A stretch of 8,326 nt of DNA. Origin: a virus (taxonomy: Duplodnaviria; Heunggongvirae; Uroviricota; Caudoviricetes). The stretch is taken from the IMG/VR virus record IMGVR_UViG_3300039384_000072; one strand, written 5' to 3'. Positions 80 to 8,326 of this stretch are shown here, in pieces (within the stretch, counting starts at the first letter, position 1; each line of letters opens with the position of its first letter). The notes below the pieces were generated by a model, which was given only the letters and a program-made list of their open reading frames with translations, was not told where the DNA came from and made no database searches. The translations under genes were made by a program, and so were the position numbers.

Positions 80-164
80 GCCGAAGTGGCGAAATCGGTA
101 GACGCAGTTGATTCAAAATCAACCGTAGAAATACGTGCCGGTTCGAGTCCGGCCTTCGGCACCA
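80..164 (+). tRNA. leuX: tRNA-Leu (anticodon CAA), 85 nt with encoded CCA; leuX-type, the known P4 integration target
   Basis: Read directly: acceptor stem GCCGAAG.../...CTTCGGC, D-arm with GG, anticodon stem gttga/tcaac around loop ttCAAaa, long variable arm, T-arm GGTTCGAGTCC, 3' CCA. The sequence matches my memory of E. coli leuX. Phage and island integration at tRNA 3' ends is established. Confidence 0.9.
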
Positions 165-327
165 TTAGCACTTCCAAGATCATCCGAGAAAGTCCAATTG
201 TTCCTTATAATTCAATGAGTTCAGTGATTCTTATGTCCGGAGTCGTCCGAGATTGTCCGTTGAAATCCGGATGCCATTGGGGGCATAATTAGGGGCATCT
301 TGACTTCGATTAGAAATGTGCCCCCAA

Positions 328-1584
328 ATGAAGCTCAACGCCAGACTGGTCGAGACCGCAAAGCCAAAAGACAAAACCTACAAAATGGCCGATGGTGGCG
401 GTTTGTATCTTGAGGTTTCGGCCAAGGGATCTAAATACTGGCGTATGAAATACAGACGCCCTTCAGACAAAAAAGAGGATCGCCTCGCTTTTGGCGTTTG
501 GCCTACTGTGACACTTGCCCAGGCAAGGGCAAAACGTGATGAAGCTAAAAGATTATTAGTGCAGGGTATTGATCCAAAAGCCGAGCAGAAAGCGGCTCAG
601 GCCGAGAAATCGGGGGCATATACTTTCGAAACGATCGCTCGTGAATGGCATGCCAGTAACAAGCGCTGGAGTGAAGACCATAGAGCGCGCGTTCTTCGCT
701 ATCTTGAGCTTTATATCTTCCCTCATATCGGATCGTCCGATATCCGCCAGCTTAAAACAAGCCACCTGTTAGCCCCGATTAAAAAAGTTGATGCCAGTGG
801 TAAGCATGACGTCGCGCAGCGTCTTCAGCAGCGTGTTACAGCTATTATGCGTTATGCCGTACAGAACGATTATATCGACTCAAACCCAGCCAGTGATATG
901 GCTGGTGCTTTATCGACAGTTAAAACACGACACTATCCAGCGTTACCCTCCCATCGTTTTCCCGAATTATTGGCACGTCTCGCTGCATATCGTGGTCGTA
1001 TAATGACAAAAATTGCGGTTCAGCTTTCTTTACTAACATTTGTTCGCTCAAGTGAATTACGCTTTGCTCGTTGGAGAGAGTTTGATTTTGATAACGCAAT
1101 TTGGCGTATTCCGGCAAAACGTGAAGAAATTAAAGGAGTGCGTTACTCATACCGTGGTATGAAAATGAAAGAAGAACATATTGTGCCATTAAGTCATCAA
1201 GCCATGGAACTCTTGAGGCAGCTAACACAAATTAGTGGTGATAAGGAGTTTCTTTTTCCTGGGGATCACGATGCTACGAAAGTTATGAGTGAAAATACGG
1301 TAAACAATGCTTTACGCTCAATGGGATATGACACCAAAACTGAAGTTTGTGGGCATGGATTTAGAACAATGGCGCGTGGAGCCTTGGGAGAGTCAGGATT
1401 ATGGAGTGATGACGCAATAGAGCGTCAGTTGAGTCATGCTGAGCGTAACAATGTGCGTGCTGCTTATATTCATACTTCAGAGCATTTAGATGAACGTCGG
1501 CTAATGATTCAGTGGTGGGCTGACTACTTGGGAGCAAATAAAGAAAAATATATCACACCTTATGATTATGCTAAGTCTGAATAG
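328..1584 (+). CDS. int: P4-type tyrosine integrase (site-specific recombinase)
   Basis: ORF track 316..1584. The N-terminus MKLNARLVETAKPKDKTYKMADGGGLYLEV...KYWRMKYR is the characteristic P4-integrase arm-binding region, and the C-terminal half carries catalytic-domain features (HGFR, terminal Y region). Start chosen at ATG 328 (MKLNAR); ATG 316 is an in-frame alternative. Lies immediately downstream of the tRNA. Confidence 0.9.
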   Translation: MKLNARLVETAKPKDKTYKMADGGGLYLEVSAKGSKYWRMKYRRPSDKKEDRLAFGVWPTVTLAQARAKRDEAKRLLVQGIDPKAEQKAAQAEKSGAYTFETIAREWHASNKRWSEDHRARVLRYLELYIFPHIGSSDIRQLKTSHLLAPIKKVDASGKHDVAQRLQQRVTAIMRYAVQNDYIDSNPASDMAGALSTVKTRHYPALPSHRFPELLARLAAYRGRIMTKIAVQLSLLTFVRSSELRFARWREFDFDNAIWRIPAKREEIKGVRYSYRGMKMKEEHIVPLSHQAMELLRQLTQISGDKEFLFPGDHDATKVMSENTVNNALRSMGYDTKTEVCGHGFRTMARGALGESGLWSDDAIERQLSHAERNNVRAAYIHTSEHLDERRLMIQWWADYLGANKEKYITPYDYAKSE

Positions 1585-1733
1585 CGGGTAACAGCTATTG
1601 TTATATTTTATGTTAACACTATCACGTTTTCTGAGATATCAATCTAACTTTGTTAGTAACTCAGGTAGGATTCAGTGTGGTATGTTAAGATTAATGATCT
1701 ATTGGATTAAGCTTTGATTTAAAGGAGGTTTTT

Positions 1734-3197
1734 ATGCCAAAGTTAAGAATATATTTTTCAGATTTTTTTAATGTATCTCCTGAAAAAATAAAAGAGTATG
1801 GTGCATTTAATATTTCTCTGATTAATGATTTGCCGCTATTTATTGATCCGTTTTTGTTATTTAATAATGAGAAATATATAGATTTACATCAGGGGATAAT
1901 TAAATATGTTTCTTTCTTAAGAGATCGTTCTCAGAATGGAGAATTAAATCGAGGTTTAATCAAAAGTTGGTTTTTATTTCCTGAGGTAAAACAAAACTGG
2001 CTGGGTTATAGCATGGTTGGGAACGGTGGGAGTGGATTGGGTATTGATTTTGCAAATTCCTTAATCACCTCATTTTCAAGTATTTTAAAAAACTTTGGTA
2101 AAGAGGAAATTACTGAGGGAAGTCATCTTGAAAAATTGTGTTTGATTAAGGAGGGGGTAGGAAAGGATAGTATTAGTGATTTTACCACTAATTTAATTAA
2201 ATCGTTTTTACTGAAGTATACTGAAGATTTCTCTAAAGAAAATATAGATAGTAAATATCTCTCTGAACACTTAGTACCAAAAGTTGAATTTAATTACGAA
2301 ACCAGAAGTTGGATGAGTAAAAAATTCACGTTGCCAACATATGCTGGAGATTATGTTCTTTTAACTCCGAGAGATATACTCACAAAAGATGAAACTTGGA
2401 TTAACAGAAATGAAATGATCGAGGACTTTAGAGATATATGTGAAAGTATCCCTAATGATCAATTGCGTGGACAATTGTCTGATTATTTCAATAGATGTCT
2501 CCCAGACTCTCCAAAGAAAAAGGAACGAGAGTCCGCTGCCGATTTGACAATTAAGAATTACCCGAGTTTTATTGATTATTATATTCGTTATAAAGAACAA
2601 AACTCTGGGGGTGCTAAACGTGATAGTAATGCAAAGGTTAGCGAAACTGAGCAAAGGTATATTGAAGCTGTCCAACTTTTGGTTGATACAATCTTTAATA
2701 AACATCAGGAGTTCTTTAGTTCAAAGGATGATACTTTCGAAGAGGCCTATAAGCGAGTCTGTTATCTTAAACAGGTAATAGAAAATAATGATGGCTATAA
2801 AGTATTCTATTTGAATGGTGTCCCAATTAAGCGTGAAGCTGATTTGCAGTTAATGTTTAGATTAACATGGTTTGCTAGTATTTCTGATGTCAATAGTGAA
2901 GTAAATAATGGTCGTGGTCCCGTTGACTACAAAATATCGAGAGGTTCGAAAGATAAAACATTGGTTGAATTCAAACTGGCTAGTAACTCCAAGCTTAAAC
3001 AGAATCTGGCAAATCAGGTTAAAGTGTATGAGGCGGCAAATGAAACAAAAAAATCAATAAAGGTTATTTTGTATTTTACTGATCGAGAATTGTCTGGATT
3101 GTTTAAGACTTTCAAAGAACTTGGGATTAAAGAAGGTAAGGATTTAGTCTTGATTGATGCTAGGCCTAATAAGGTTTCTGCATCGAATGTCAAATAA
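1734..3197 (+). CDS. Hypothetical 487-aa protein with a C-terminal PD-(D/E)xK / RecB-like nuclease signature; candidate single-gene anti-phage defence protein
   Basis: Strong RBS AGGAGG (1723-1728) 5 nt before ATG 1734; long uninterrupted ORF. By eye it is markedly AT-rich compared with flanking genes. C-terminal motifs read from the translation: acidic residue in READ, then GRGPVD (D398), VEFK (E412, K414), then QVKVY (Q428...Y432), the order and spacing expected for RecB/Cas4-like PD-(D/E)xK nucleases. The N-terminal ~380 aa have no motif I can assign. Followed by a hairpin plus T-run. Confidence 0.8.
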   Translation: MPKLRIYFSDFFNVSPEKIKEYGAFNISLINDLPLFIDPFLLFNNEKYIDLHQGIIKYVSFLRDRSQNGELNRGLIKSWFLFPEVKQNWLGYSMVGNGGSGLGIDFANSLITSFSSILKNFGKEEITEGSHLEKLCLIKEGVGKDSISDFTTNLIKSFLLKYTEDFSKENIDSKYLSEHLVPKVEFNYETRSWMSKKFTLPTYAGDYVLLTPRDILTKDETWINRNEMIEDFRDICESIPNDQLRGQLSDYFNRCLPDSPKKKERESAADLTIKNYPSFIDYYIRYKEQNSGGAKRDSNAKVSETEQRYIEAVQLLVDTIFNKHQEFFSSKDDTFEEAYKRVCYLKQVIENNDGYKVFYLNGVPIKREADLQLMFRLTWFASISDVNSEVNNGRGPVDYKISRGSKDKTLVEFKLASNSKLKQNLANQVKVYEAANETKKSIKVILYFTDRELSGLFKTFKELGIKEGKDLVLIDARPNKVSASNVK

Positions 3198-3220
3198 CTT
3201 GTTGGGAATGAGTATGATTT

Positions 3221-3245
3221 AAGCCGCATTATGGCGGCTTTTTAT
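3221..3245 (+). terminator. Rho-independent terminator downstream of the cargo ORF
   Basis: Stem aagccgc (3221-3227) pairs with gcggctt (3234-3240) around a 6-nt loop, followed by a T-run (3240-3244). Confidence 0.55.
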
Positions 3246-3379
3246 AATCTTCTTTTATTATGGTAACGACACTTTAGATGTATAGGGCAGTATTCATTTT
3301 AATAAACAGTTTTGCACATGAGCGTGATGGTATTAAGTATTTGTGAACTTTATTAAGTATGTAACAAGGTCTGCGCGCA

Positions 3380-3398
3380 GTGCTTTCCCCGCCTCGCC
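3380..3398. other. cos: cos site: P2/P4-type 19-nt cohesive-end sequence (reverse complement of GGCGAGGCGGGGAAAGCAC)
   Basis: Read directly: gtgctttccccgcctcgcc at 3380-3398 is the exact reverse complement of the P2/P4 cohesive-end 19-mer as I remember it. It is followed by a GC-rich hairpin (cccgcccgctttgcggggcgg) and lies between the variable region and psu, where cos sits in P4. Confidence 0.8.
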
Positions 3399-3500
3399 CG
3401 CCCGCTTTGCGGGGCGGTTTTAATGCAGTTGCACTGACACGCTCAGGCCGCGCCGGGAATGGCGCGGTTTGCAGAAAATGAGGCAGGAAAACGCATGCAA

Positions 3501-3532
3501 AGCCATGCACCTTATCGATGCATGGCTTTTTT
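3501..3532 (+). terminator. Hairpin with T-run (terminator-like) between cos and the psu 3' end
   Basis: Stem agccatgca (3501-3509) pairs with tgcatggct (3519-3527), followed by a T-run (3527-3532). Orientation and function are uncertain; it could be part of the cos-flanking recognition region. Confidence 0.4.
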
Positions 3533-3562
3533 CAGTAAAAACGGGCGGATTTTCGGGGAGTT

Positions 3563-4135
3563 TTACACAGACTGATGTGATACCAGTTGCGCACTTTTAC
3601 GCGAAAAAATCATGTTCTGCGCAGGGGTGAATTTTTCACGGCTGTCATCCACCGAAGCCGCGTCAGGCCTGAATCCGATGGTCGTTAAAATGTCGCTATC
3701 CTGTGCGGAATAATTAATTTTTTCCCCCTTCGCAAGCCAGGACAGAAGGGCTTCACGCAGGGCATCTGTGGCACGCTGTATGGCACAGTTTCGGGCAATG
3801 GCCGTCAGCTCACTGTAGCCCATCAGCTCCGGTGCCAGTGCGGCCGCCAGTGCTGTGCCGTGCTGCTGCATAAAATCATTCAGCCGGTCGCGGATGCTGA
3901 TGTGCTGAACGGCTTCATGCGAACGAATATAACGACCGGCAGCCTGATTCACCTGCCATTTTCTGACTTCGATAATATTGCGTAATTCGTCCAGGCGACT
4001 GACGTTTCTGCCTTCCCCGGACAGAAGCCGCAGATATTCCTGTTCGGCCGCAGCCAGCTCATTTTTGCGTTGCAGCCATGCTGCTTTGTTATTCTGACAG
4101 GTGTCAAAGGCCTGCTGTAAGGCTGTGCTTTCCAT
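3563..4135 (-). CDS. psu: Psu (polarity suppression protein / capsid-decoration protein), 190 aa
   Basis: ORF track 3563..4135 minus, 190 aa, beginning MESTALQQAFDTCQ. Length and N-terminus match my memory of P4 Psu. Position is last gene of the sid-delta-psu operon, next to cos. Confidence 0.85.
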   Translation of the reverse strand: MESTALQQAFDTCQNNKAAWLQRKNELAAAEQEYLRLLSGEGRNVSRLDELRNIIEVRKWQVNQAAGRYIRSHEAVQHISIRDRLNDFMQQHGTALAAALAPELMGYSELTAIARNCAIQRATDALREALLSWLAKGEKINYSAQDSDILTTIGFRPDAASVDDSREKFTPAQNMIFSRKSAQLVSHQSV

Positions 4136-4208
4136 CGTTATCTCTTTCTCATCATGCTGAAGAATAAAAATACGGTGTGCGGCGACGGCCGGTGTTAACC
4201 GGCAGCCT

Positions 4209-4709
4209 TCATTCCAGACGCAGCGAATATGATTGTGTTTTTAACCGTACTGGCGGCAGTTCCTGTTTTTCATGCAGGCGTTCTGCCAGTTCGTCCGGTG
4301 TGACCGGGCGGACAATGAAGCGGTTGATGGTCTGAAGCGTTTTAAACACCAGACCACAGCCCGGCTCCGTGCACACATAAAAACGTTCGGTGACTTCCTG
4401 AGACAGACGCCGCGATGTTCTTGACAGTGCAAGGCCTTTACATCTCCGACAACAATATCCGGTAACAAGCATTCTTTTCGGGCGTTTCATACTGCCGGAG
4501 GCAGAAGTCAGTGAATCGCGGTATCTCTGTTTGCCTGAAATGTATTCCATTCCTGAATCTTTACAGTCAGAGAAAAAGCTTTCACTCGCTTCAAATGTCG
4601 CAGAGCAATAAATATTCCGGCACTGTGCAATCATTATCTTGGTGCCATCGTCCATGAAATGTGCGCGACGGGTGTGAGCAACATGTCCACACGACGGGCA
4701 GTAAATCAT
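4209..4709 (-). CDS. delta: Delta late-gene transcriptional activator (tandem Ogr-like zinc-finger protein), 166 aa
   Basis: Two Ogr-type Cys clusters in one polypeptide (CPSCGH...C...YC and CCRRC...CTEPGC), which is the known duplicated-Ogr architecture of P4 delta. The start codon overlaps the sid stop (ATGA at 4706-4709 on the minus strand). Confidence 0.85.
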   Translation of the reverse strand: MIYCPSCGHVAHTRRAHFMDDGTKIMIAQCRNIYCSATFEASESFFSDCKDSGMEYISGKQRYRDSLTSASGSMKRPKRMLVTGYCCRRCKGLALSRTSRRLSQEVTERFYVCTEPGCGLVFKTLQTINRFIVRPVTPDELAERLHEKQELPPVRLKTQSYSLRLE

Positions 4710-5440
4710 GACAGCAGTCCTCTGGCCTTAAGCTCTGCTCCCTGCTGGTCTATTTTGTCCTGCCACACCTTGCGCTGTGCCGGTGTGCCTGCCACCTCAT
4801 AATCCATGTGCGGGAGTGTTGCCGCTGACAGTCCGGTCAGCCGGAGAACCGGCTCACCGCTGAGGCTGATTTGCATCTGTTTTATTTTCTGTTCCAGCGA
4901 TGATTTCACCTGCTGCATGACAGCCTTTTCCGGTGCGATGTAGCCCTGATGGCCGGTGGTGTTGGCGAGCGGATTTTCCTGTACCAGGATGCTCAGATGC
5001 ATTGCCCGGACAAGCGCCTCACAGGTTTCATTCAGGGCGTGTTCCAGCTCATGCTCTGCATACAGACTCAGAAGGTGATGATGTGCCTTCCGGTAGGCGG
5101 TGGCCGTGCTGTCACACGCCCCTTTCAGGCGTTCGCGTTCAAAATTCAGCACCACGGCCAGATTGTCATATTCCTGTACCAGCTCCCGGCGTGCCACGCG
5201 CTCAATGTGGCGCTGTTTCAGCTCATCGCTCAGGACACCACCGGCTGCACGAAAGGCCGTGCGCCAGTCGTCAGCGTCGTTTCCGTCGGCCTGCGCCAGC
5301 GCATTTTTTTCCTGCTCTGCCCGTTCAATGGCCGTGACGGTCTCATCCATCAGGCGGGCGTTCTCAAGATGGGCGGCTCTGGCCTTTTCCAGTTGTGCCA
5401 GCGCGGGTTGCAGATATTCAGGGATGGTGTTGTCAGACAT
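4706..5440 (-). CDS. sid: Sid (external scaffold / capsid size determination protein), 244 aa from the second in-frame ATG
   Basis: The ORF track gives 250 aa from ATG 5458. The in-frame ATG at 5440 (MSDNTIPEYL...) has a GAGGAA Shine-Dalgarno about 8 nt upstream and gives 244 aa, matching my memory of P4 Sid. The protein is alpha-helical and Ala/Glu/Leu-rich, as expected for a scaffold. Confidence 0.8.
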   Translation of the reverse strand: MSDNTIPEYLQPALAQLEKARAAHLENARLMDETVTAIERAEQEKNALAQADGNDADDWRTAFRAAGGVLSDELKQRHIERVARRELVQEYDNLAVVLNFERERLKGACDSTATAYRKAHHHLLSLYAEHELEHALNETCEALVRAMHLSILVQENPLANTTGHQGYIAPEKAVMQQVKSSLEQKIKQMQISLSGEPVLRLTGLSAATLPHMDYEVAGTPAQRKVWQDKIDQQGAELKARGLLS

Positions 5441-5474
5441 TTTCCGGTTCCTCGTCACTTCAGGTTAAGAAAAT

Positions 5475-5492
5475 TGTGACGTACACCGGACA
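5475..5492. promoter_or_regulatory. TGT-N12-ACA dyad (Ogr/delta-type activator site), promoter-proximal site of Psid
   Basis: Read directly: TGT (5475-5477), 12 nt, ACA (5490-5492). It lies 38 bp from the dyad at 5513-5530, consistent with -55 and about -17 sites upstream of sid. Confidence 0.5.
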
Positions 5493-5512
5493 ACAACACG
5501 ACGCATTGCAGA

Positions 5513-5530
5513 TGTGCCAGCCCTGACACA
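5513..5530. promoter_or_regulatory. TGT-N12-ACA dyad (Ogr/delta-type activator site), candidate -55 site of the late promoter Psid
   Basis: Read directly: TGT (5513-5515), 12 nt, ACA (5528-5530), about 80 bp upstream of the sid start codon on the minus strand. P2/P4 late promoters are known to be activated through TGT-N12-ACA sites centred near -55. Confidence 0.55.
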
Positions 5531-5612
5531 GGAGACTCATCCTCAGACCGGCAAGCCAGGAAAAGGTCGCAGGAAAAACCGGCTTACTGTTTGTTTTTTT
5601 TTATATTTTACT

Positions 5613-5715
5613 GTTCACCTCTGTTCACAATAAGAAAAAAGATAAGTAATACAGTAAGTTAAAGGGTGAACAATCGCAGTAATGACTGTTCACCGTCTGT
5701 TCACCACTGTTCACC
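5613..5715. repeat. crr: Iteron cluster: six copies of the octamer TGTTCACC (five direct, one inverted), candidate alpha-binding cis replication region (crr)
   Basis: Read directly: TGTTCACC at 5613-5620, 5688-5695, 5698-5705 and 5708-5715; variant TGTTCACA at 5623-5630; inverted GGTGAACA at 5665-5672. TGTTCACC is, from memory, the P4 alpha-protein binding octamer found in ori and crr. Confidence 0.6.
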
Positions 5716-5873
5716 CGTTGATGGGCTTTTTGTGCTGTTTATTACTTTTTATTTTTATTAATTCACTGAAATAAATAAGAAAAAACAATTTGTATTTCAC
5801 TATAATTTTTTCCAGCTCCTTCCAGAGCGTTTTAAAGCTATCTGGCGCTGATGTACAAAAAATGCACAGCCAT

Positions 5874-5891
5874 TGTAAGGCTGCCGGAACA
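5874..5891. promoter_or_regulatory. TGT-N12-ACA dyad, candidate -55 activator site of the late leftward-type promoter (PLL analogue) driving vis
   Basis: Read directly: TGT (5874-5876), 12 nt, ACA (5889-5891). A site centred here places a transcription start near 5937, about 57 nt upstream of the vis ATG at 5994. Confidence 0.5.
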
Positions 5892-5993
5892 AATCCCCCC
5901 TGTTGCGTCTGCCGAAAATATTCACAAAATAAAGCGCTACCCGAAGCCGGACGGACTTATCCGGTGCTGTATGGACATTAACGAGGTAGCCCG

Positions 5994-6260
5994 ATGCAAG
6001 CTGTTTTTTCTTCCCCGTCTCCCGCCCCTGTGACGCCACTGATGCCGCTGCCGGACATCACACAGGAGCGTTTTTTACGTCTTCCGGAAGTGATGCACCT
6101 GTGCGGCCTGTCACGCTCGACCATCTACGAACTCATCCGTAAGGGGGAATTTCCGCCGCAGGTGAGTCTTGGCGGTAAAAATGTGGCCTGGCTGCACTCT
6201 GAAGTCACCGCATGGATGGCCGGCCGCATTGCCGGACGCAAACGGGGGTACGACGCATGA
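5994..6260 (+). CDS. vis: Vis/AlpA-family small DNA-binding protein (excision/regulatory), 88 aa
   Basis: RBS GAGGT (5983-5987) 6 nt before ATG 5994. The C-terminal half [44 protein letters not shown] is the AlpA/Vis-type helix-turn-helix signature. The 88-aa length matches my memory of P4 Vis. Confidence 0.75.
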
Positions 6261-6295
6261 TGATGCCTGTTCTGCAAAAAGTCCCTTTTTCTGGC

Positions 6296-6325
6296 TTGCC
6301 TTTTTCCGGCATTTGCGGATATAGT
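6296..6325 (+). promoter_or_regulatory. Candidate early/immunity promoter (PLE analogue): -35 TTGCCT (6296-6301), 18-bp spacer, -10 TATAGT (6320-6325)
   Basis: Read directly; lies just downstream of vis and upstream of the structured leader region. Confidence 0.35.
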
Positions 6326-6356
6326 TTTTCCGCTGTCGCAAAATCGGCAGCCGGGC

Positions 6357-6647
6357 GTGGAAACCCGAGCAATCTAACGGCGACATATGACGCGCCATGC
6401 GTCTTTTTTTGTGTCGCAATCAACGCCACAGAGCGCCAGATTATGGTGTGGTGTGTGGTCAGTCGAGCAGATGGAACTCCGTGCATCCTGCCCGCGTCCG
6501 CTCATTATGCCGCAGAGTCAATGGTAGCTCAGGCGGGGCAGCCTCCGGGCTGGCCGGTATCCGTTAGAGCCGGTATTTCCACCCCCGTCTGGGCTATCGC
6601 CATCGAGCGTGGAAACTCCGGCGATAGCGTAACCTGCTATCTAACGG
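6357..6647 (+). ncRNA. Candidate P4-type RNA immunity region: transcribed leader with seqA-like (6357-6380), seqB-like (6561-6582) and seqC-like (6609-6647) elements
   Basis: Read directly: GTGGAAAC...ATCTAACGG occurs at 6357-6380 and again at 6609-6647. The element CCGTTAGA...TTTCCAC at 6561-6582 is complementary to both ends of each copy. Additional local hairpins, e.g. gctatcgcc (6593-6601) pairing with ggcgatagc (6620-6628). The precise RNA ends cannot be determined from sequence. Confidence 0.35.
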
Positions 6648-6658
6648 AGGCTGCCATC

Positions 6659-6856
6659 ATGGCTACAACCCTTACCCCTTCACACCCTGAATTTGTCTTT
6701 GTGTTTGCGGCTGTCCGTCGCGCAGACCGTCATCCCCGTATCTGCATGCTTCGCACCGTCGCCGGTGATGAACGCAGTGCCCGCCGTTCCCTTGTCCGTG
6801 ACTATGTGCTCTCCCTTGCTGCCCGTCTGCCGGTGGTGGAGGTGTCCCGTGCGTAA
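6659..6856 (+). CDS. Small protein, 65 aa, possibly Icd-like host cell division inhibitor / Ash-region protein of P4-like elements
   Basis: RBS GGAGG (6646-6650) 8 nt before ATG 6659. The frame is open from 6212, so in-frame ATGs at 6521 and 6443 are possible alternative starts. Family assignment rests on position within the immunity region and a vague sequence recollection, so it is uncertain. Confidence 0.45.
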
Positions 6857-7136
6857 TAAAAAAGCCCCTCAGACCGTCTCAGCGCGTCATGACGCCCGTG
6901 AACACCTCAGCATTGAGGCTTACCATAAGCTCAACCGCGCCAGCGCCGTATCCCAGTTTGTTGGGGGTGATTTGATTCACCGTGAACTCTCCGGCCTGCA
7001 TCAGCTCTACATTCCGCATATTTTCAGCTACCTGAATGAAGATATTGATTTTGTGCTGAATGAGCTGAAAGCCAAAGGCCTGTGCCGCGATTTTCTCGCC
7101 CAGCAGAAAGACCGGGGAGACAAGACGCATGTTTGA
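6849..7136 (+). CDS. Hypothetical small protein, about 95 aa, at the position of P4 epsilon (helper derepression protein)
   Basis: The ORF track's 6693..7136 frame has no ATG beyond 6693, and that ATG overlaps the preceding gene. GTG 6849 is preceded by GGAGG (6838-6842) with a 6-nt spacer. The 3' end overlaps the next ORF (ATG 7129, stop 7134-7136), suggesting translational coupling. The epsilon assignment is positional only. Confidence 0.5.
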
Positions 7137-7584
7137 TTTTCCCCAGCCCGGTGAGATTTACCGTTCTGCCGGTTTTCCCGATGTGGCCGTGGTCGGCATT
7201 CTGGAAGACGGTATTCCGTGGGAAATGCCGTACCGCTGCCCGGACATTGTCTGGAACCCGTACCGCCGTAAATTCAGTATCCTTGTGCGTATCCTCGCTG
7301 ACGGGCGCACCACAGACATCCCGCTGGGGCGTTTTCTGCGGGAATTTACCTGTGACCGTCCTGACCTGTTTAAACGCAGCCCCGTAAACCGGCATGCGGT
7401 ACTGAAAGAAATGGCCGGAGACCCGGAATTACAGAAATGGCGGGAGAAATATCTGGATATTTACCCGCAGGCCCCTGTTCCGGTCAGCCGGGCGGCACCG
7501 GTGGCGCGGGAATGGCGGGAAATTCCCCGCACGGAGCCTGACCCGGAAATCACCCCGGATAACAGTTACCGCAATTATCTGTAA
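7129..7584 (+). CDS. Hypothetical protein, 151 aa; same size and position as P4 orf151 upstream of alpha
   Basis: ORF track 7129..7584, 151 aa; purine-rich GGGGAG about 9 nt upstream; coupled to the upstream ORF. Protein-like composition. Function unknown. Confidence 0.7.
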   Translation: MFDFPQPGEIYRSAGFPDVAVVGILEDGIPWEMPYRCPDIVWNPYRRKFSILVRILADGRTTDIPLGRFLREFTCDRPDLFKRSPVNRHAVLKEMAGDPELQKWREKYLDIYPQAPVPVSRAAPVAREWREIPRTEPDPEITPDNSYRNYL

Positions 7585-7719
7585 TTAAAAAACGACACCC
7601 GAAAAATTAAATGTGCGTATTCGCGCAGGGATACGCACGTCTTCAGGAGACGCAGATATGCCTTATCAGTTAATGCAACCGGCACGGAATGCAGTCATCT
7701 GTCACAGGGAGGAAAACAA

Positions 7720-8040
7720 ATGAAAACACCCTTACCGCCCGTCTTACGTGCTGCCCTTTACCGTCGCGCTGTCGCCTGTGCCTGGCTGACCGTGTGCGAA
7801 CGTCAGCACCGCTACCCGCATCTCACCCTTGAGTCACTGGAGGCGGCCATCGCCGCTGAGCTGGAAGGCTTTTATCTGCGCCAGCACGGTGAGGAAAAAG
7901 GGCGTCAGATAGCCTGTGCCCTGCTGGAAGATTTAATGGAATCCGGCCCCCTGAAGGCCGCGCCGTCGCTGTCCTTTCTCGGGCTGGTTGTGATGGATGA
8001 ACTCTGTGCCCGTCACATAAAAGCGCCGGTACTGCACTGA
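7720..8040 (+). CDS. Hypothetical protein, 106 aa, immediately upstream of the primase gene
   Basis: RBS GGGAGG (7707-7712) 7 nt before ATG 7720. Ends 14 nt before the primase start, consistent with one operon. Confidence 0.65.
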
Positions 8041-8054
8041 AGGAGAACAACACC

Positions 8055-8326
8055 ATGAAAATGAACGTAACCGCCACCGTCAGCCATGCGCTCGGCCACT
8101 GGCCGCGTATTCTCCCGGCGCTGGGGATTCAGGTGCTGAAAAACCGTCATCAGCCCTGTCCGGTCTGTGGCGGGAGTGACCGCTTCCGTTTTGATGACAG
8201 GGAGGGGCGCGGCACCTGGTACTGCAATCAGTGTGGTGCCGGTGACGGCCTGAAACTGGTTGGAAAGGTGTTTGGTGTCTCTCCGTCCGACGCGGCCGCA
8301 AAGGTGGCTGCCGTGACCGGCAGCCT
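8055..8326 (+). CDS. alpha: Alpha-type primase/helicase, N-terminal fragment (primase zinc-ribbon domain); 3' end outside the window
   Basis: RBS AAGGAG (8040-8045) 9 nt before ATG 8055; open to the window end. Translation MKMNVTATVSHALGHWPRILPALGIQVLKNRHQPCPVCGGSDRFRFDDREGRGTWYCNQCGAGDGLKLV contains the CxxC...CxxC zinc-ribbon typical of P4 alpha / T7 gp4-type primases. Not in the ORF track because there is no stop in the window. Confidence 0.8.
   Translation, partial: MKMNVTATVSHALGHWPRILPALGIQVLKNRHQPCPVCGGSDRFRFDDREGRGTWYCNQCGAGDGLKLVGKVFGVSPSDAAAKVAAVTGS

What the first reader, a model, noticed from the sequence alone, without database searches (positions are those of the whole stretch)
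1734..3197. AT-rich 487-aa cargo gene with a RecB-like nuclease signature in the satellite's int-cos/psu variable region: candidate single-gene anti-phage system
Seen in sequence: a single long ORF with a strong RBS and its own terminator sits between int and cos/psu. Its base composition is visibly far more AT-rich than the satellite backbone, which suggests recent horizontal acquisition. The last ~100 residues carry D398, E412-x-K414 and Q428-x-x-x-Y432 in the order and spacing of PD-(D/E)xK nucleases of the RecB/Cas4 type. The ~380-aa N-terminal region has no motif I can place and would be the presumptive sensor or regulatory part. Established knowledge: the interval between int and psu/cos of P4-like satellites is a recognised hotspot for diverse anti-phage systems, and in P4 itself this position holds gop-beta-cII. 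Inference: this is a nuclease-effector defence protein, possibly abortive infection, not carried by canonical P4. I cannot tell without searches whether it belongs to a named family such as Shedu-like DUF4263 proteins or is undescribed.
Basis: partly seen in the sequence, partly recalled or inferred. Interest (0 to 1): 0.85.

Follow-up and report, generated by a model that had tools for sequence, protein, structure and literature searches.

The report
Known phage-defence nuclease DS-20 on satellite
The AT-rich 487-residue gene is a real single-gene phage-defence cargo of a P4-like satellite, but a protein differing by one residue was already shown to be defensive (system DS-20); what remains unknown is how its large, very conserved front part controls the DNA-cutting end.

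Summary
An ORF at 1734-3197 (+) has a consensus RBS and its own terminator. It lies in a 1.8-kb AT-rich block (G+C 0.33 against 0.45-0.58 in the backbone) that fills the variable int-cos/psu slot of a P4-like satellite.

D398, E412, K414 and Y432 are invariant in 54 homologues. They sit on the correct elements of a modelled alpha-beta-beta-beta-alpha-beta core whose best PDB matches are restriction endonucleases.

- Rousset 2022 listed this protein as P4 hotspot system #20 ("Nuclease") without testing it.
- DeWeirdt et al. (DefensePredictor, Science 2026) cloned a 486/487-identical protein and scored it defensive and replicated, as DS-20. In the screen rows read, protection was 5-50-fold against T3, T7, SECphi27, several BASEL phages, Candy and lambda. 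No mechanism was given.
- It is not Shedu and not specifically RecB/Cas4-like.

New here: the front ~350 residues (Pfam DUF8370) have no solved structural relative. In other proteins they are fused to TIR, SIR2, SEFIR, CHAT, caspase or nucleoside-phosphorylase domains, and the relic nuclease site has usually decayed. This suggests a sensor or regulator wired to swappable effectors. Homologues span about ten phyla as solitary genes.

The parts
80..164 (+). tRNA-Leu(CAA), the chromosomal attachment site of the satellite
   Evidence: ARAGORN, Rfam tRNA, RefSeq annotation.
316..1584 (+). P4-type tyrosine integrase, left border of the cargo slot
   Evidence: ORF. Annotated as tyrosine-type recombinase. 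Homology to sister elements (85% identity) ends at 1569-1574.
1575..3367 (.). Variable, AT-rich cargo block that replaces gop-beta-cII of P4
   Evidence: blastn against IHE3034 and S1-ESP-02-A elements. G+C about 0.31-0.34. Other cargoes occupy the same slot.
1722..1728 (+). Shine-Dalgarno AAGGAGG, 5 nt upstream of the ATG
   Evidence: Read from the sequence.
1734..3197 (+). Defence gene, 487 aa: DS-20 / DUF8370-DUF8371 protein (WP_001572310.1)
   Evidence: ORF. RefSeq name 'DUF8370 family protein'. 486/487 identical to WP_032291790.1 = DS-20.
1734..2453 (+). N-terminal alpha/beta core (aa 1-240) of the DUF8370 module, the presumed sensor or regulator. It contains the invariant IDPF (aa 37-40), the glycine-rich loop GNGGSGLG (aa 96-103, nt 2019-2042), HLEK (131-134), GKDSISDF (143-150) and TKD (217-219).
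   Evidence: Conservation. AF2 models. No PDB or viral fold match. The same module is fused to TIR, SIR2, SEFIR, CHAT, caspase or PNP domains elsewhere.
2454..2807 (+). Helical linker (aa 241-358), including a 32-residue helix (292-323); the least conserved part
   Evidence: AF2 secondary structure. Mean pairwise identity 0.52, against 0.65 for the N-core and 0.73 for the nuclease domain.
2808..3194 (+). C-terminal PD-(D/E)xK nuclease domain (aa 359-487). Codons: E368 2835-2837, D398 2925-2927, E412 2967-2969, K414 2973-2975, Q428 3015-3017, Y432 3027-3029.
3221..3248 (+). Intrinsic terminator of the cargo gene (7-bp stem with 5 G-C pairs, 6-nt loop, T-run)
   Evidence: Terminator scan.
3368..3562 (.). 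Start of the conserved right arm (cos-proximal region), 98% identical in sister elements
   Evidence: blastn. The conserved GC-rich sequence here matches the start of the inserts cloned by Rousset 2022.
3563..4135 (-). psu (polarity suppression protein), right-hand landmark of the slot
   Evidence: ORF, annotation.

Best explanation
The ORF is DS-20, a single-protein anti-phage system carried in the exchangeable int-cos/psu slot of a P4-like satellite.

Shown:
- A near-identical protein protects E. coli MG1655 on its own.
- The protein has three parts: a ~240-residue alpha/beta core and a ~120-residue helical linker (together the DUF8370 module), followed by a PD-(D/E)xK nuclease domain with an intact, invariant catalytic set.

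Inferred:
- The nuclease is the effector, and the DUF8370 module holds it inactive until an infection cue is sensed.
- Once active, it cuts DNA (phage DNA, possibly also host DNA), which gives modest protection against several phage types.
- The N-module is as conserved across phyla as the nuclease domain. The cue is therefore more likely a general feature of infection (a nucleotide-like ligand or a nucleic-acid structure, perhaps bound at the invariant glycine-rich and acidic loops) than a fast-evolving phage protein.
For: 1. Experiment in the literature. WP_032291790.1 (486/487 identical) is listed with pBAD TRUE, defensive TRUE, DS-20 and replicated TRUE. Screen rows give log10 protection of 1.70 (Bas3), 1.48 (Bas1), 1.15 (Bas11), 1.34 (Bas19), 1.52 (T3), 1.26 (T7) and 1.54 (SECphi27). 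Rows flagged 'Y' (meaning not given in the part of the table read) show about 1.0 (Bas67), 0.92 (Candy) and 0.74 (lambda); the fifth Bas-series row, Bas25, shows none (-0.36, also flagged 'Y').
2. Nuclease fold and invariant D398, E412, K414 and Y432.
3. Effector swapping. The N-module (47-52% identical, E about 1e-82 to 1e-105) is fused to SIR2, TIR, SEFIR, CHAT, caspase (+EAD7) or PNP_UDP_1 domains.
4. Decay of the relic site. In 13 such long proteins that still align to the nuclease domain, at least 7 carry substitutions at D398 or E412. Only one keeps D398, E412 and K414, and it has lost Q428/Y432.
5. Solitary gene. No neighbour is conserved across 80 loci from about ten phyla, and the window's slot holds no other credible ORF.
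6. Defence and mobile-element contexts:
   - P4 hotspots.
   - A Vibrio array of short same-strand genes consistent with a chromosomal integron (my reading; no attC sites or integrase checked), beside a DUF4238 gene.
   - A conjugative element near CBASS genes.
   - A prophage.
   - A Tn3 family transposase and an IS256-like element flank the gene on a conjugative plasmid.
   - A SIR2/GIY-YIG island.
   - Directly after hsdR in 10 of 80 loci.
   - Next to Gabija-like genes.
7. Domain conservation: N-core 0.65 and nuclease 0.73 mean pairwise identity.
Against: - No catalytic mutant, nuclease assay, trigger or infection time-course exists for DS-20, so 'nuclease effector', 'activated on infection' and 'abortive' are inferences.
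- Reported protection is small (about 5-50-fold), with no effect on Bas25. I read only one part of the plaque table, so the full spectrum is unknown, and no T4, T5 or RB69 rows for this construct appeared in that part.
- The N-module has no recognisable ligand-binding or DNA-binding fold. Its most conserved loops are modelled with low confidence.
- Its conserved Asp, Glu and His residues could equally indicate an enzyme rather than a sensor.
- A branch of 438-481-aa homologues has a degenerate nuclease domain and no added effector. The simple sensor-plus-effector picture does not explain this branch.
Confidence: 0.85

Rival explanations
1. A solitary restriction endonuclease (Type IV-like or orphan Type II-like). 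The N-terminal part would be a DNA-recognition domain, and the enzyme would cut incoming phage DNA constitutively by sequence or modification, with no infection-triggered activation.
For: - The best structural neighbours are Type II restriction enzymes, and the published HHpred match is DpnII-MboI.
- The gene lies immediately downstream of hsdR in 10 of 80 loci, within Type I R-M operons.
- Modest EOP reductions are compatible with restriction.
Against: - There is no methyltransferase in the slot, yet MG1655 tolerates the gene.
- Protection covers T7, T3 and lambda; from general knowledge, not tested here, these phages carry ordinary unmodified DNA, which argues against modification-dependent cutting.
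- The same N-module drives TIR, SIR2, CHAT, caspase and PNP effectors, which do not act on a DNA site.
- The N-module has no match to known DNA-binding folds.
Confidence: 0.1
2. The N-terminal module is itself an enzyme (for example acting on a nucleotide or nucleic acid) that works together with the nuclease, rather than a sensor or regulator.
For: - Many invariant Asp, Glu, His, Lys and Ser residues and a glycine-rich loop GNGGSGLG.
- Conservation as high as in the catalytic domain.
- Recurrent placement just downstream of ribonucleotide reductase genes in at least four lineages.
Against: - No fold or sequence similarity to any enzyme family.
- Fusion of a constant module to many alternative toxic effectors is the usual pattern for sensors.
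- The reductase adjacency may simply mark an island insertion site: Gabija-like genes follow the gene in L084.
Confidence: 0.15
3. An addiction or toxin gene, or a gene serving the satellite's own life cycle (helper exploitation, packaging), rather than host defence.
For: It is carried by a mobile element next to cos, and nucleases can act as toxins.
Against: - It is present in only 17 of 5426 E. coli genomes, while the surrounding window matches 5425 of 5426 genomes (partly through the flanking tRNA-Leu) and sister elements carry other cargo in the slot.
- No antitoxin ORF is present.
- The same gene occurs in a Vibrio cassette-like gene array, R-M operons, conjugative elements and plasmids of distant phyla that have no P4 genes.
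- It protects when cloned alone, without the satellite.
Confidence: 0.03

Closest known systems
DS-20 (working name PDX1; WP_032291790.1) of DeWeirdt et al., DefensePredictor, Science 2026 (PMC13092281)
   Same: 486/487 identical (I111T). One genome carrying WP_032291790.1 (CP160643) has it in the same int-psu position; the context of the cloned source contig (NZ_QOYR01000022.1) was not examined. Single gene with a PD-(D/E)xK annotation on residues 333-474.
   Different: Nothing material; this is the same system. That paper gives no mechanism, no mutants and no annotation for residues 1-332.
P4 hotspot system #20 ('DpnII-MboI', 'Nuclease', 73 occurrences) in Table S1 of Rousset et al. 2022 (PMC9122126)
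   Same: Same protein: WP_001572310 is listed, and the sequence shown in the table (cut off after about residue 399) differs at two residues. Same hotspot.
   Different: It was only catalogued there. Its sequence is absent from the table of tested systems.
PADLOC candidate PDC-M36 (protein A)
   Same: The N-terminal module matches the PDC-M36A profile (E 4e-21, residues 5-329).
   Different: The match is partial and moderate. PDC-M36 is a multi-gene candidate, whereas the window has no partner gene. The true PDC-M36A branch is more distant.
Sensor-plus-swappable-effector immune proteins, such as SAVED or CARF effector fusions (Cap4, Can2, Card1, TIR-SAVED) and Shedu
   Different: The N-module is not SAVED, CARF or DUF4263. 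No signal-producing cyclase is needed, because the gene protects alone.
Type II restriction endonucleases of the BamHI/BglII/BstYI/OkrAI group
   Different: 6-11% identity. Those enzymes lack the 358-residue N-terminal module and work with a cognate methyltransferase.

Membership tests
PD-(D/E)xK nuclease superfamily | alpha-beta-beta-beta-alpha-beta core fold | tested here: met
PD-(D/E)xK nuclease superfamily | Catalytic Asp on beta2 and (D/E)xK on beta3, conserved in the family | tested here: met
   D398 falls on strand 396-402; E412 and K414 fall on strand 408-415. All three are invariant in 54 sequences.
PD-(D/E)xK nuclease superfamily | Metal-dependent phosphodiester cleavage | not testable with these tools
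   Needs a biochemical assay; none is reported for DS-20.
RecB/Cas4-type nucleases | QxxxY motif on the helix after the (D/E)xK strand | tested here: met
   Q428 (>=90% conserved) and Y432 (invariant) lie on helix 421-435.
RecB/Cas4-type nucleases | Closest structural or sequence relatives are RecB, Cas4 or AddB; Cas4 also needs a four-Cys Fe-S cluster | tested here: not met
Shedu (SduA, DUF4263) | DUF4263 (PF14082) nuclease domain, or a match to the PADLOC Shedu model | tested here: not met
DS-20 (DeWeirdt et al. 2026) | Same protein sequence as the validated construct | tested here: met
   486/487 identical to WP_032291790.1, which is PDX1 = DS-20, defensive and replicated.
DS-20 (DeWeirdt et al. 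2026) | Protection against phage by this exact allele (I111) | not testable with these tools
   Position 111 is variable in the family, so an effect is unlikely but remains untested.
P4-like satellite defence-hotspot cargo (Rousset et al. 2022) | Located between int and cos/psu of a P4-like element | tested here: met
   tRNA-Leu, int, ORF, psu, delta, sid, then C4 RNA, isrK and the start of the primase gene at the window's right edge.
P4-like satellite defence-hotspot cargo (Rousset et al. 2022) | Slot content varies between otherwise near-identical elements | tested here: met
   The right arm is 98% identical, while the slot holds gop-beta-cII or three other genes. The gene is in 17 of 5426 genomes.
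Pfam DUF8370 (PF28123) / DUF8371 (PF28130) | Match to both Pfam models | tested here: met
   Precomputed Pfam hits on the 100%-identical cluster representative P0001. RefSeq names the protein 'DUF8370 family protein'. The local Pfam copy lacks these models. TIR-fused relatives keep PF28123 only, so PF28123 is the N-module.
PADLOC PDC-M36 | Multi-gene organisation with a partner (B) gene | tested here: not met
   No other credible ORF lies in 1575-3562. No neighbour is conserved in 80 loci. The A-profile match covers residues 5-329 only.
Lamassu (LmuA PD-(D/E)xK effector) | LmuA paired with an LmuB SMC-like ATPase | tested here: not met
   The only link is a remote HHblits similarity over 17% of the protein, reported by DeWeirdt et al.. 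There is no SMC-like neighbour and no PADLOC Lamassu hit.

The most novel reading that the evidence does not exclude
The DUF8370 module (residues 1-358) may be an undescribed, phylum-spanning infection sensor with a fold not represented in the PDB. Evolution has wired it to at least six effector classes: PD-(D/E)xK nuclease, TIR/SEFIR, SIR2, CHAT, caspase and PNP nucleosidase. Its unusually high conservation, glycine-rich loop and repeated placement next to ribonucleotide reductase genes would fit sensing of a conserved, nucleotide-related infection cue rather than a phage protein.
Probability: 0.4. Interest if true: 0.65.

Novelty: already known. Interest (0 to 1): 0.3.

Why it matters
As a discovery, the gene adds nothing new. 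It was catalogued in 2022 and experimentally validated as DS-20 in 2025-26.

Its remaining value is mechanistic. DS-20 is one of many validated systems with no known trigger. The analysis here shows that its unannotated front two-thirds is a widely distributed, strongly conserved module that is reused with at least five other immune effector types in place of an active nuclease. That makes it a tractable case for asking what general signal of infection a bacterial immune sensor can read. It also gives a ready set of natural effector-swap variants for comparison.

Tried and rejected
- Local Pfam, NCBIfam and PHROGs scans of the protein gave nothing informative. Pfam had no hit; PHROGs returned phrog_30194, of unknown function.
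- A profile search of PDB sequences gave only chance hits, E about 1.
- Foldseek of the N-module against viral structures found nothing at E<=0.001.
- The afdb50 library was unavailable.
- tblastn against 50,697 phage records found no match, so the gene is not a common gene of sequenced phages.
- No papers were found for PDC-M36, DUF8370, DUF8371, WP_001572310 or 'DS-20 anti-phage'.
- The gene is not among the new P4 systems (Crouga, Bandua, Aernus, Toga, Reve, Hailong) of Moura de Sousa et al. 2026. It is not in the held supplement of the chromosomal-integron defence preprint.
- It was not among the systems tested by Rousset 2022.
- A search for a partner gene by clustering neighbours across 80 loci found none.
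- I tried to obtain contexts for the nuclease-degenerate branch through P0171. That protein is a singleton on a 2.3-kb contig, so I dropped this line.
- Shedu, Cas4/RecB, Lamassu and PDC-M36 membership were considered and rejected (see membership tests).

Full report
**Observation**

The window is a P4-like satellite integrated at tRNA-Leu(CAA) (80-164). The gene order is int (316-1584), the ORF in question (1734-3197), then psu, delta and sid on the minus strand. After these come a C4-type immunity RNA (6517-6604), isrK (6332-6409) and the start of the primase gene.

The ORF encodes 487 aa. It has AAGGAGG 5 nt before the ATG and a stem-loop terminator at 3221-3240 followed by a T-run.

G+C is 0.327 for the ORF (GC3 0.275) and 0.31-0.34 for its flanks. 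This compares with 0.45 for int and 0.53-0.58 for psu and sid.

Sister elements at the same site align to the window only up to 1569-1574 and again from 3368-3373. Between these points they carry gop-beta-cII or three unrelated genes. Only 17 of 5426 complete E. coli genomes have this cargo.

**The protein**

Homologues are very numerous: more than 6,895 clusters at 90% identity. They remain 44-63% identical across Gamma-, Beta- and Deltaproteobacteria, Verrucomicrobia, Chlorobium, Nitrospirota, Chloroflexota, Rubrobacter, Acidobacteria, Bacteroidota, Clostridia, Gracilibacteria and Bdellovibrionales.

In a 54-sequence alignment, D398, E412, K414 and Y432 are invariant and Q428 is nearly so. 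E368, D370 and Q372 are also invariant.

The PD-(D/E)xK assignment is therefore sound. A specific RecB/Cas4 or Shedu assignment is not: there is no DUF4263 or PADLOC Shedu hit, and the nuclease domain has no cysteine.

**The N-terminal 358 residues**

A separate model of residues 1-359 (pLDDT 74.6, pTM 0.72) shows an alpha/beta core with two long hairpins, followed by a helical linker. It has no convincing match in the PDB or among viral structures.

Its most conserved stretches are the least confidently modelled loops. These include IDPF (37-40), EVKQNW...GNGGSGLG (84-103), HLEK (131-134), GKDSISDF (143-150) and TKD (217-219).

A search of 1.84 billion representative proteins with residues 1-340 found 1,490 clusters at E<=0.001. 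Of 95 representatives with a near-complete N-core, 62 carry the nuclease domain.

Eighteen representatives are longer than 540 aa. Their C-termini carry the following domains:
- TIR: eight proteins, one of which also matches SEFIR
- CHAT: three
- caspase: two, one with an EAD7 adaptor domain
- SIR2: one
- PNP_UDP_1 nucleoside phosphorylase: one
- no recognised domain: one (P0142); two others (P0131, P0230) were not scanned

Thirteen of these 18 still align to the nuclease domain. At least seven of the 13 have substitutions at D398 or E412. Only one keeps D398, E412 and K414, and it has lost Q428/Y432. This is what would be expected if the nuclease is the effector in the 487-aa form and has been functionally replaced in the others.

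Precomputed Pfam hits show that TIR-fused relatives keep PF28123 (DUF8370) and lose PF28130 (DUF8371). DUF8370 is therefore the N-module and DUF8371 the nuclease part.

A further branch of 438-481-aa proteins keeps a homologous C-terminal domain (hhalign probability 98.4%). It lacks the segment bearing D398 and has no E412. I cannot explain this branch.

**Context**

The gene is solitary. Clustering the neighbours of 80 loci found no conserved partner, and the window's slot has no other credible ORF.

The contexts are those typical of defence genes and mobile elements:
- P4-like hotspots in E. coli, Klebsiella and relatives.
- A Vibrio parahaemolyticus array of short same-strand genes, consistent with a chromosomal integron (not verified), beside a DUF4238 gene.
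- A Neisseria conjugative element next to a relaxase and CBASS genes.
- A Methylomagnum prophage.
- On a Sinorhizobium conjugative plasmid, flanked by a Tn3 family transposase and an IS256-like element.
- A Rhodobacter island with SIR2, GIY-YIG and AAA genes.
- Directly downstream of hsdR inside Type I R-M operons in 10 of 80 loci.

**Literature**

Rousset et al. 2022 list this protein in Table S1 as P4 hotspot system #20. The entry reads Pfam 'DpnII-MboI', 73 occurrences, comment 'Nuclease'. The protein is not among the systems they tested.

DeWeirdt et al. (DefensePredictor; bioRxiv 2025, Science 2026) cloned WP_032291790.1 from assembly GCF_003333645.1, part of their E. coli strain collection, as 'PDX1'. 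They record it as defensive, replicated and named DS-20, in the category 'predicted novel defense gene'. That protein differs from the window's by I111T only.

The screen rows I could read show the following log10 protection:

| Phage | log10 protection | Note |
|---|---|---|
| Bas3 | 1.70 | |
| SECphi27 | 1.54 | |
| T3 | 1.52 | |
| Bas1 | 1.48 | |
| Bas19 | 1.34 | |
| T7 | 1.26 | |
| Bas11 | 1.15 | |
| Bas67 | about 1.0 | flagged 'Y' |
| Candy | 0.92 | flagged 'Y' |
| lambda | 0.74 | flagged 'Y' |
| Bas25 | -0.36 | flagged 'Y'; no protection |

The meaning of the 'Y' flag is not given in the part of the table I read.

The paper annotates only residues 333-474 (PDDEXK, DpnII-MboI, probability 0.97). 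It never discusses DS-20 individually and reports no mutants or mechanism. No other paper was found.

**Mechanism**

Shown: the gene alone protects, and it carries an intact, invariant PD-(D/E)xK site behind a conserved module that is reused with other immune effectors.

Inferred: the DUF8370 module keeps the nuclease off until infection, and the nuclease then cuts DNA.

The N-core is nearly as conserved as the catalytic domain (0.65 against 0.73 mean pairwise identity), and the spectrum covers unrelated phages. I therefore favour a general cue, either nucleotide-like or a nucleic-acid structure, over recognition of a particular phage protein. This is speculative.

The rival readings are less well supported:
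- Constitutive solitary restriction enzyme. There is no methylase, the host tolerates the gene, and protection covers phages that (from general knowledge, not tested here) have ordinary unmodified DNA. The module also drives non-DNA effectors.
- Addiction gene or satellite-function gene. The gene is rare among P4-likes, widespread outside them, and protective when cloned alone.

**Verdict**

The residual interest lies in the uncharacterised sensor-like DUF8370 module and its effector-swapped relatives.

Noticed in passing
L041 327-4813; L084 2703-10227; L048 3642-7458; L076 1463-7449; L097 3772-8842; L098 3853-8845: Homologues sit just downstream of ribonucleotide reductase genes, on the same strand. 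The reductases are class II NrdJ-TSCPD, class Ia NrdAB, or ATP-cone forms, and are only 22-29% identical between lineages. This implies at least four independent events in about 82 loci. Both TIR-fused variants examined show it. In L084 a Gabija-like pair follows the gene, so this may be an island insertion site rather than a functional link.
   Followed up: partly
L073 2897-7416 and nine other loci among L015-L094: In 10 of 80 species' loci the gene lies immediately after hsdR on the same strand (24-nt gap in L073). HsdS, HsdM and a YgjP-like metallopeptidase are nearby. The gene is an embedded passenger of Type I R-M operons.
   Followed up: partly
Representative proteins P0129, P0144, P0160, P0171, P0180, P0185, P0208, P0219, P0237, P0243 and others: A branch of 438-481-aa relatives keeps a C-terminal domain homologous to the nuclease (hhalign probability 98.4%). 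It lacks the strand segment with D398, has no E412, and has no added effector domain. These may need a separate partner, as in the multi-gene PDC-M36 candidate.
   Followed up: partly
window 316-1584 versus 3368-8326: The integrase is only about 85% identical to that of sister elements whose right arm is 98% identical. The left recombination junction lies inside the last 15 nt of int. The element is a mosaic, and int may travel with the cargo.
   Followed up: partly
L004 9477-10340; L032 3201-4061: In P4-like elements of Klebsiella and Buttiauxella (and one further locus of the three in that neighbour cluster), the gene is followed by a convergent 287-aa gene. That gene has CxxC...HH...CxxC (HNH-like) motifs and no Pfam hit at 1e-5. 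It is absent from the window and is probably a second cargo.
   Followed up: no
window 6332-6409 and 6517-6604: Rfam finds isrK (72.5 bits) and a C4 antisense RNA (76.2 bits, the P4 CI-type immunity RNA). These overlap mechanically listed ORFs (6212-6856 and others) that are probably not genes.
   Followed up: no
window aa 33-35, 84-101, 141-143, 217-219 (nt 1830-1838, 1983-2036, 2154-2162, 2382-2390): The segments with pLDDT below 50 in the full-length AF2 model are among the most conserved (invariant) loops of the N-module; in the N-module-only model only 85-100 of these falls below 50. This is consistent with a flexible active or binding site, or an interface, that the model cannot resolve.
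   Followed up: no
E. coli records NZ_CP009104.1 and NZ_AP031375.1 (hits H4, H9): In two genomes the same satellite is interrupted by insertion sequences (ISEc23 and ISEc12). The match to the window is split into two pieces.
   Followed up: no
L002 7037-9455 (Vibrio parahaemolyticus): The homologue sits in a long same-strand array of short genes about 130-150 nt apart, which looks like a chromosomal integron (no attC sites or integrase were checked). It lies immediately after a gene with a faint precomputed DUF4238 hit (DUF4238 marks another defence family).
   Followed up: no
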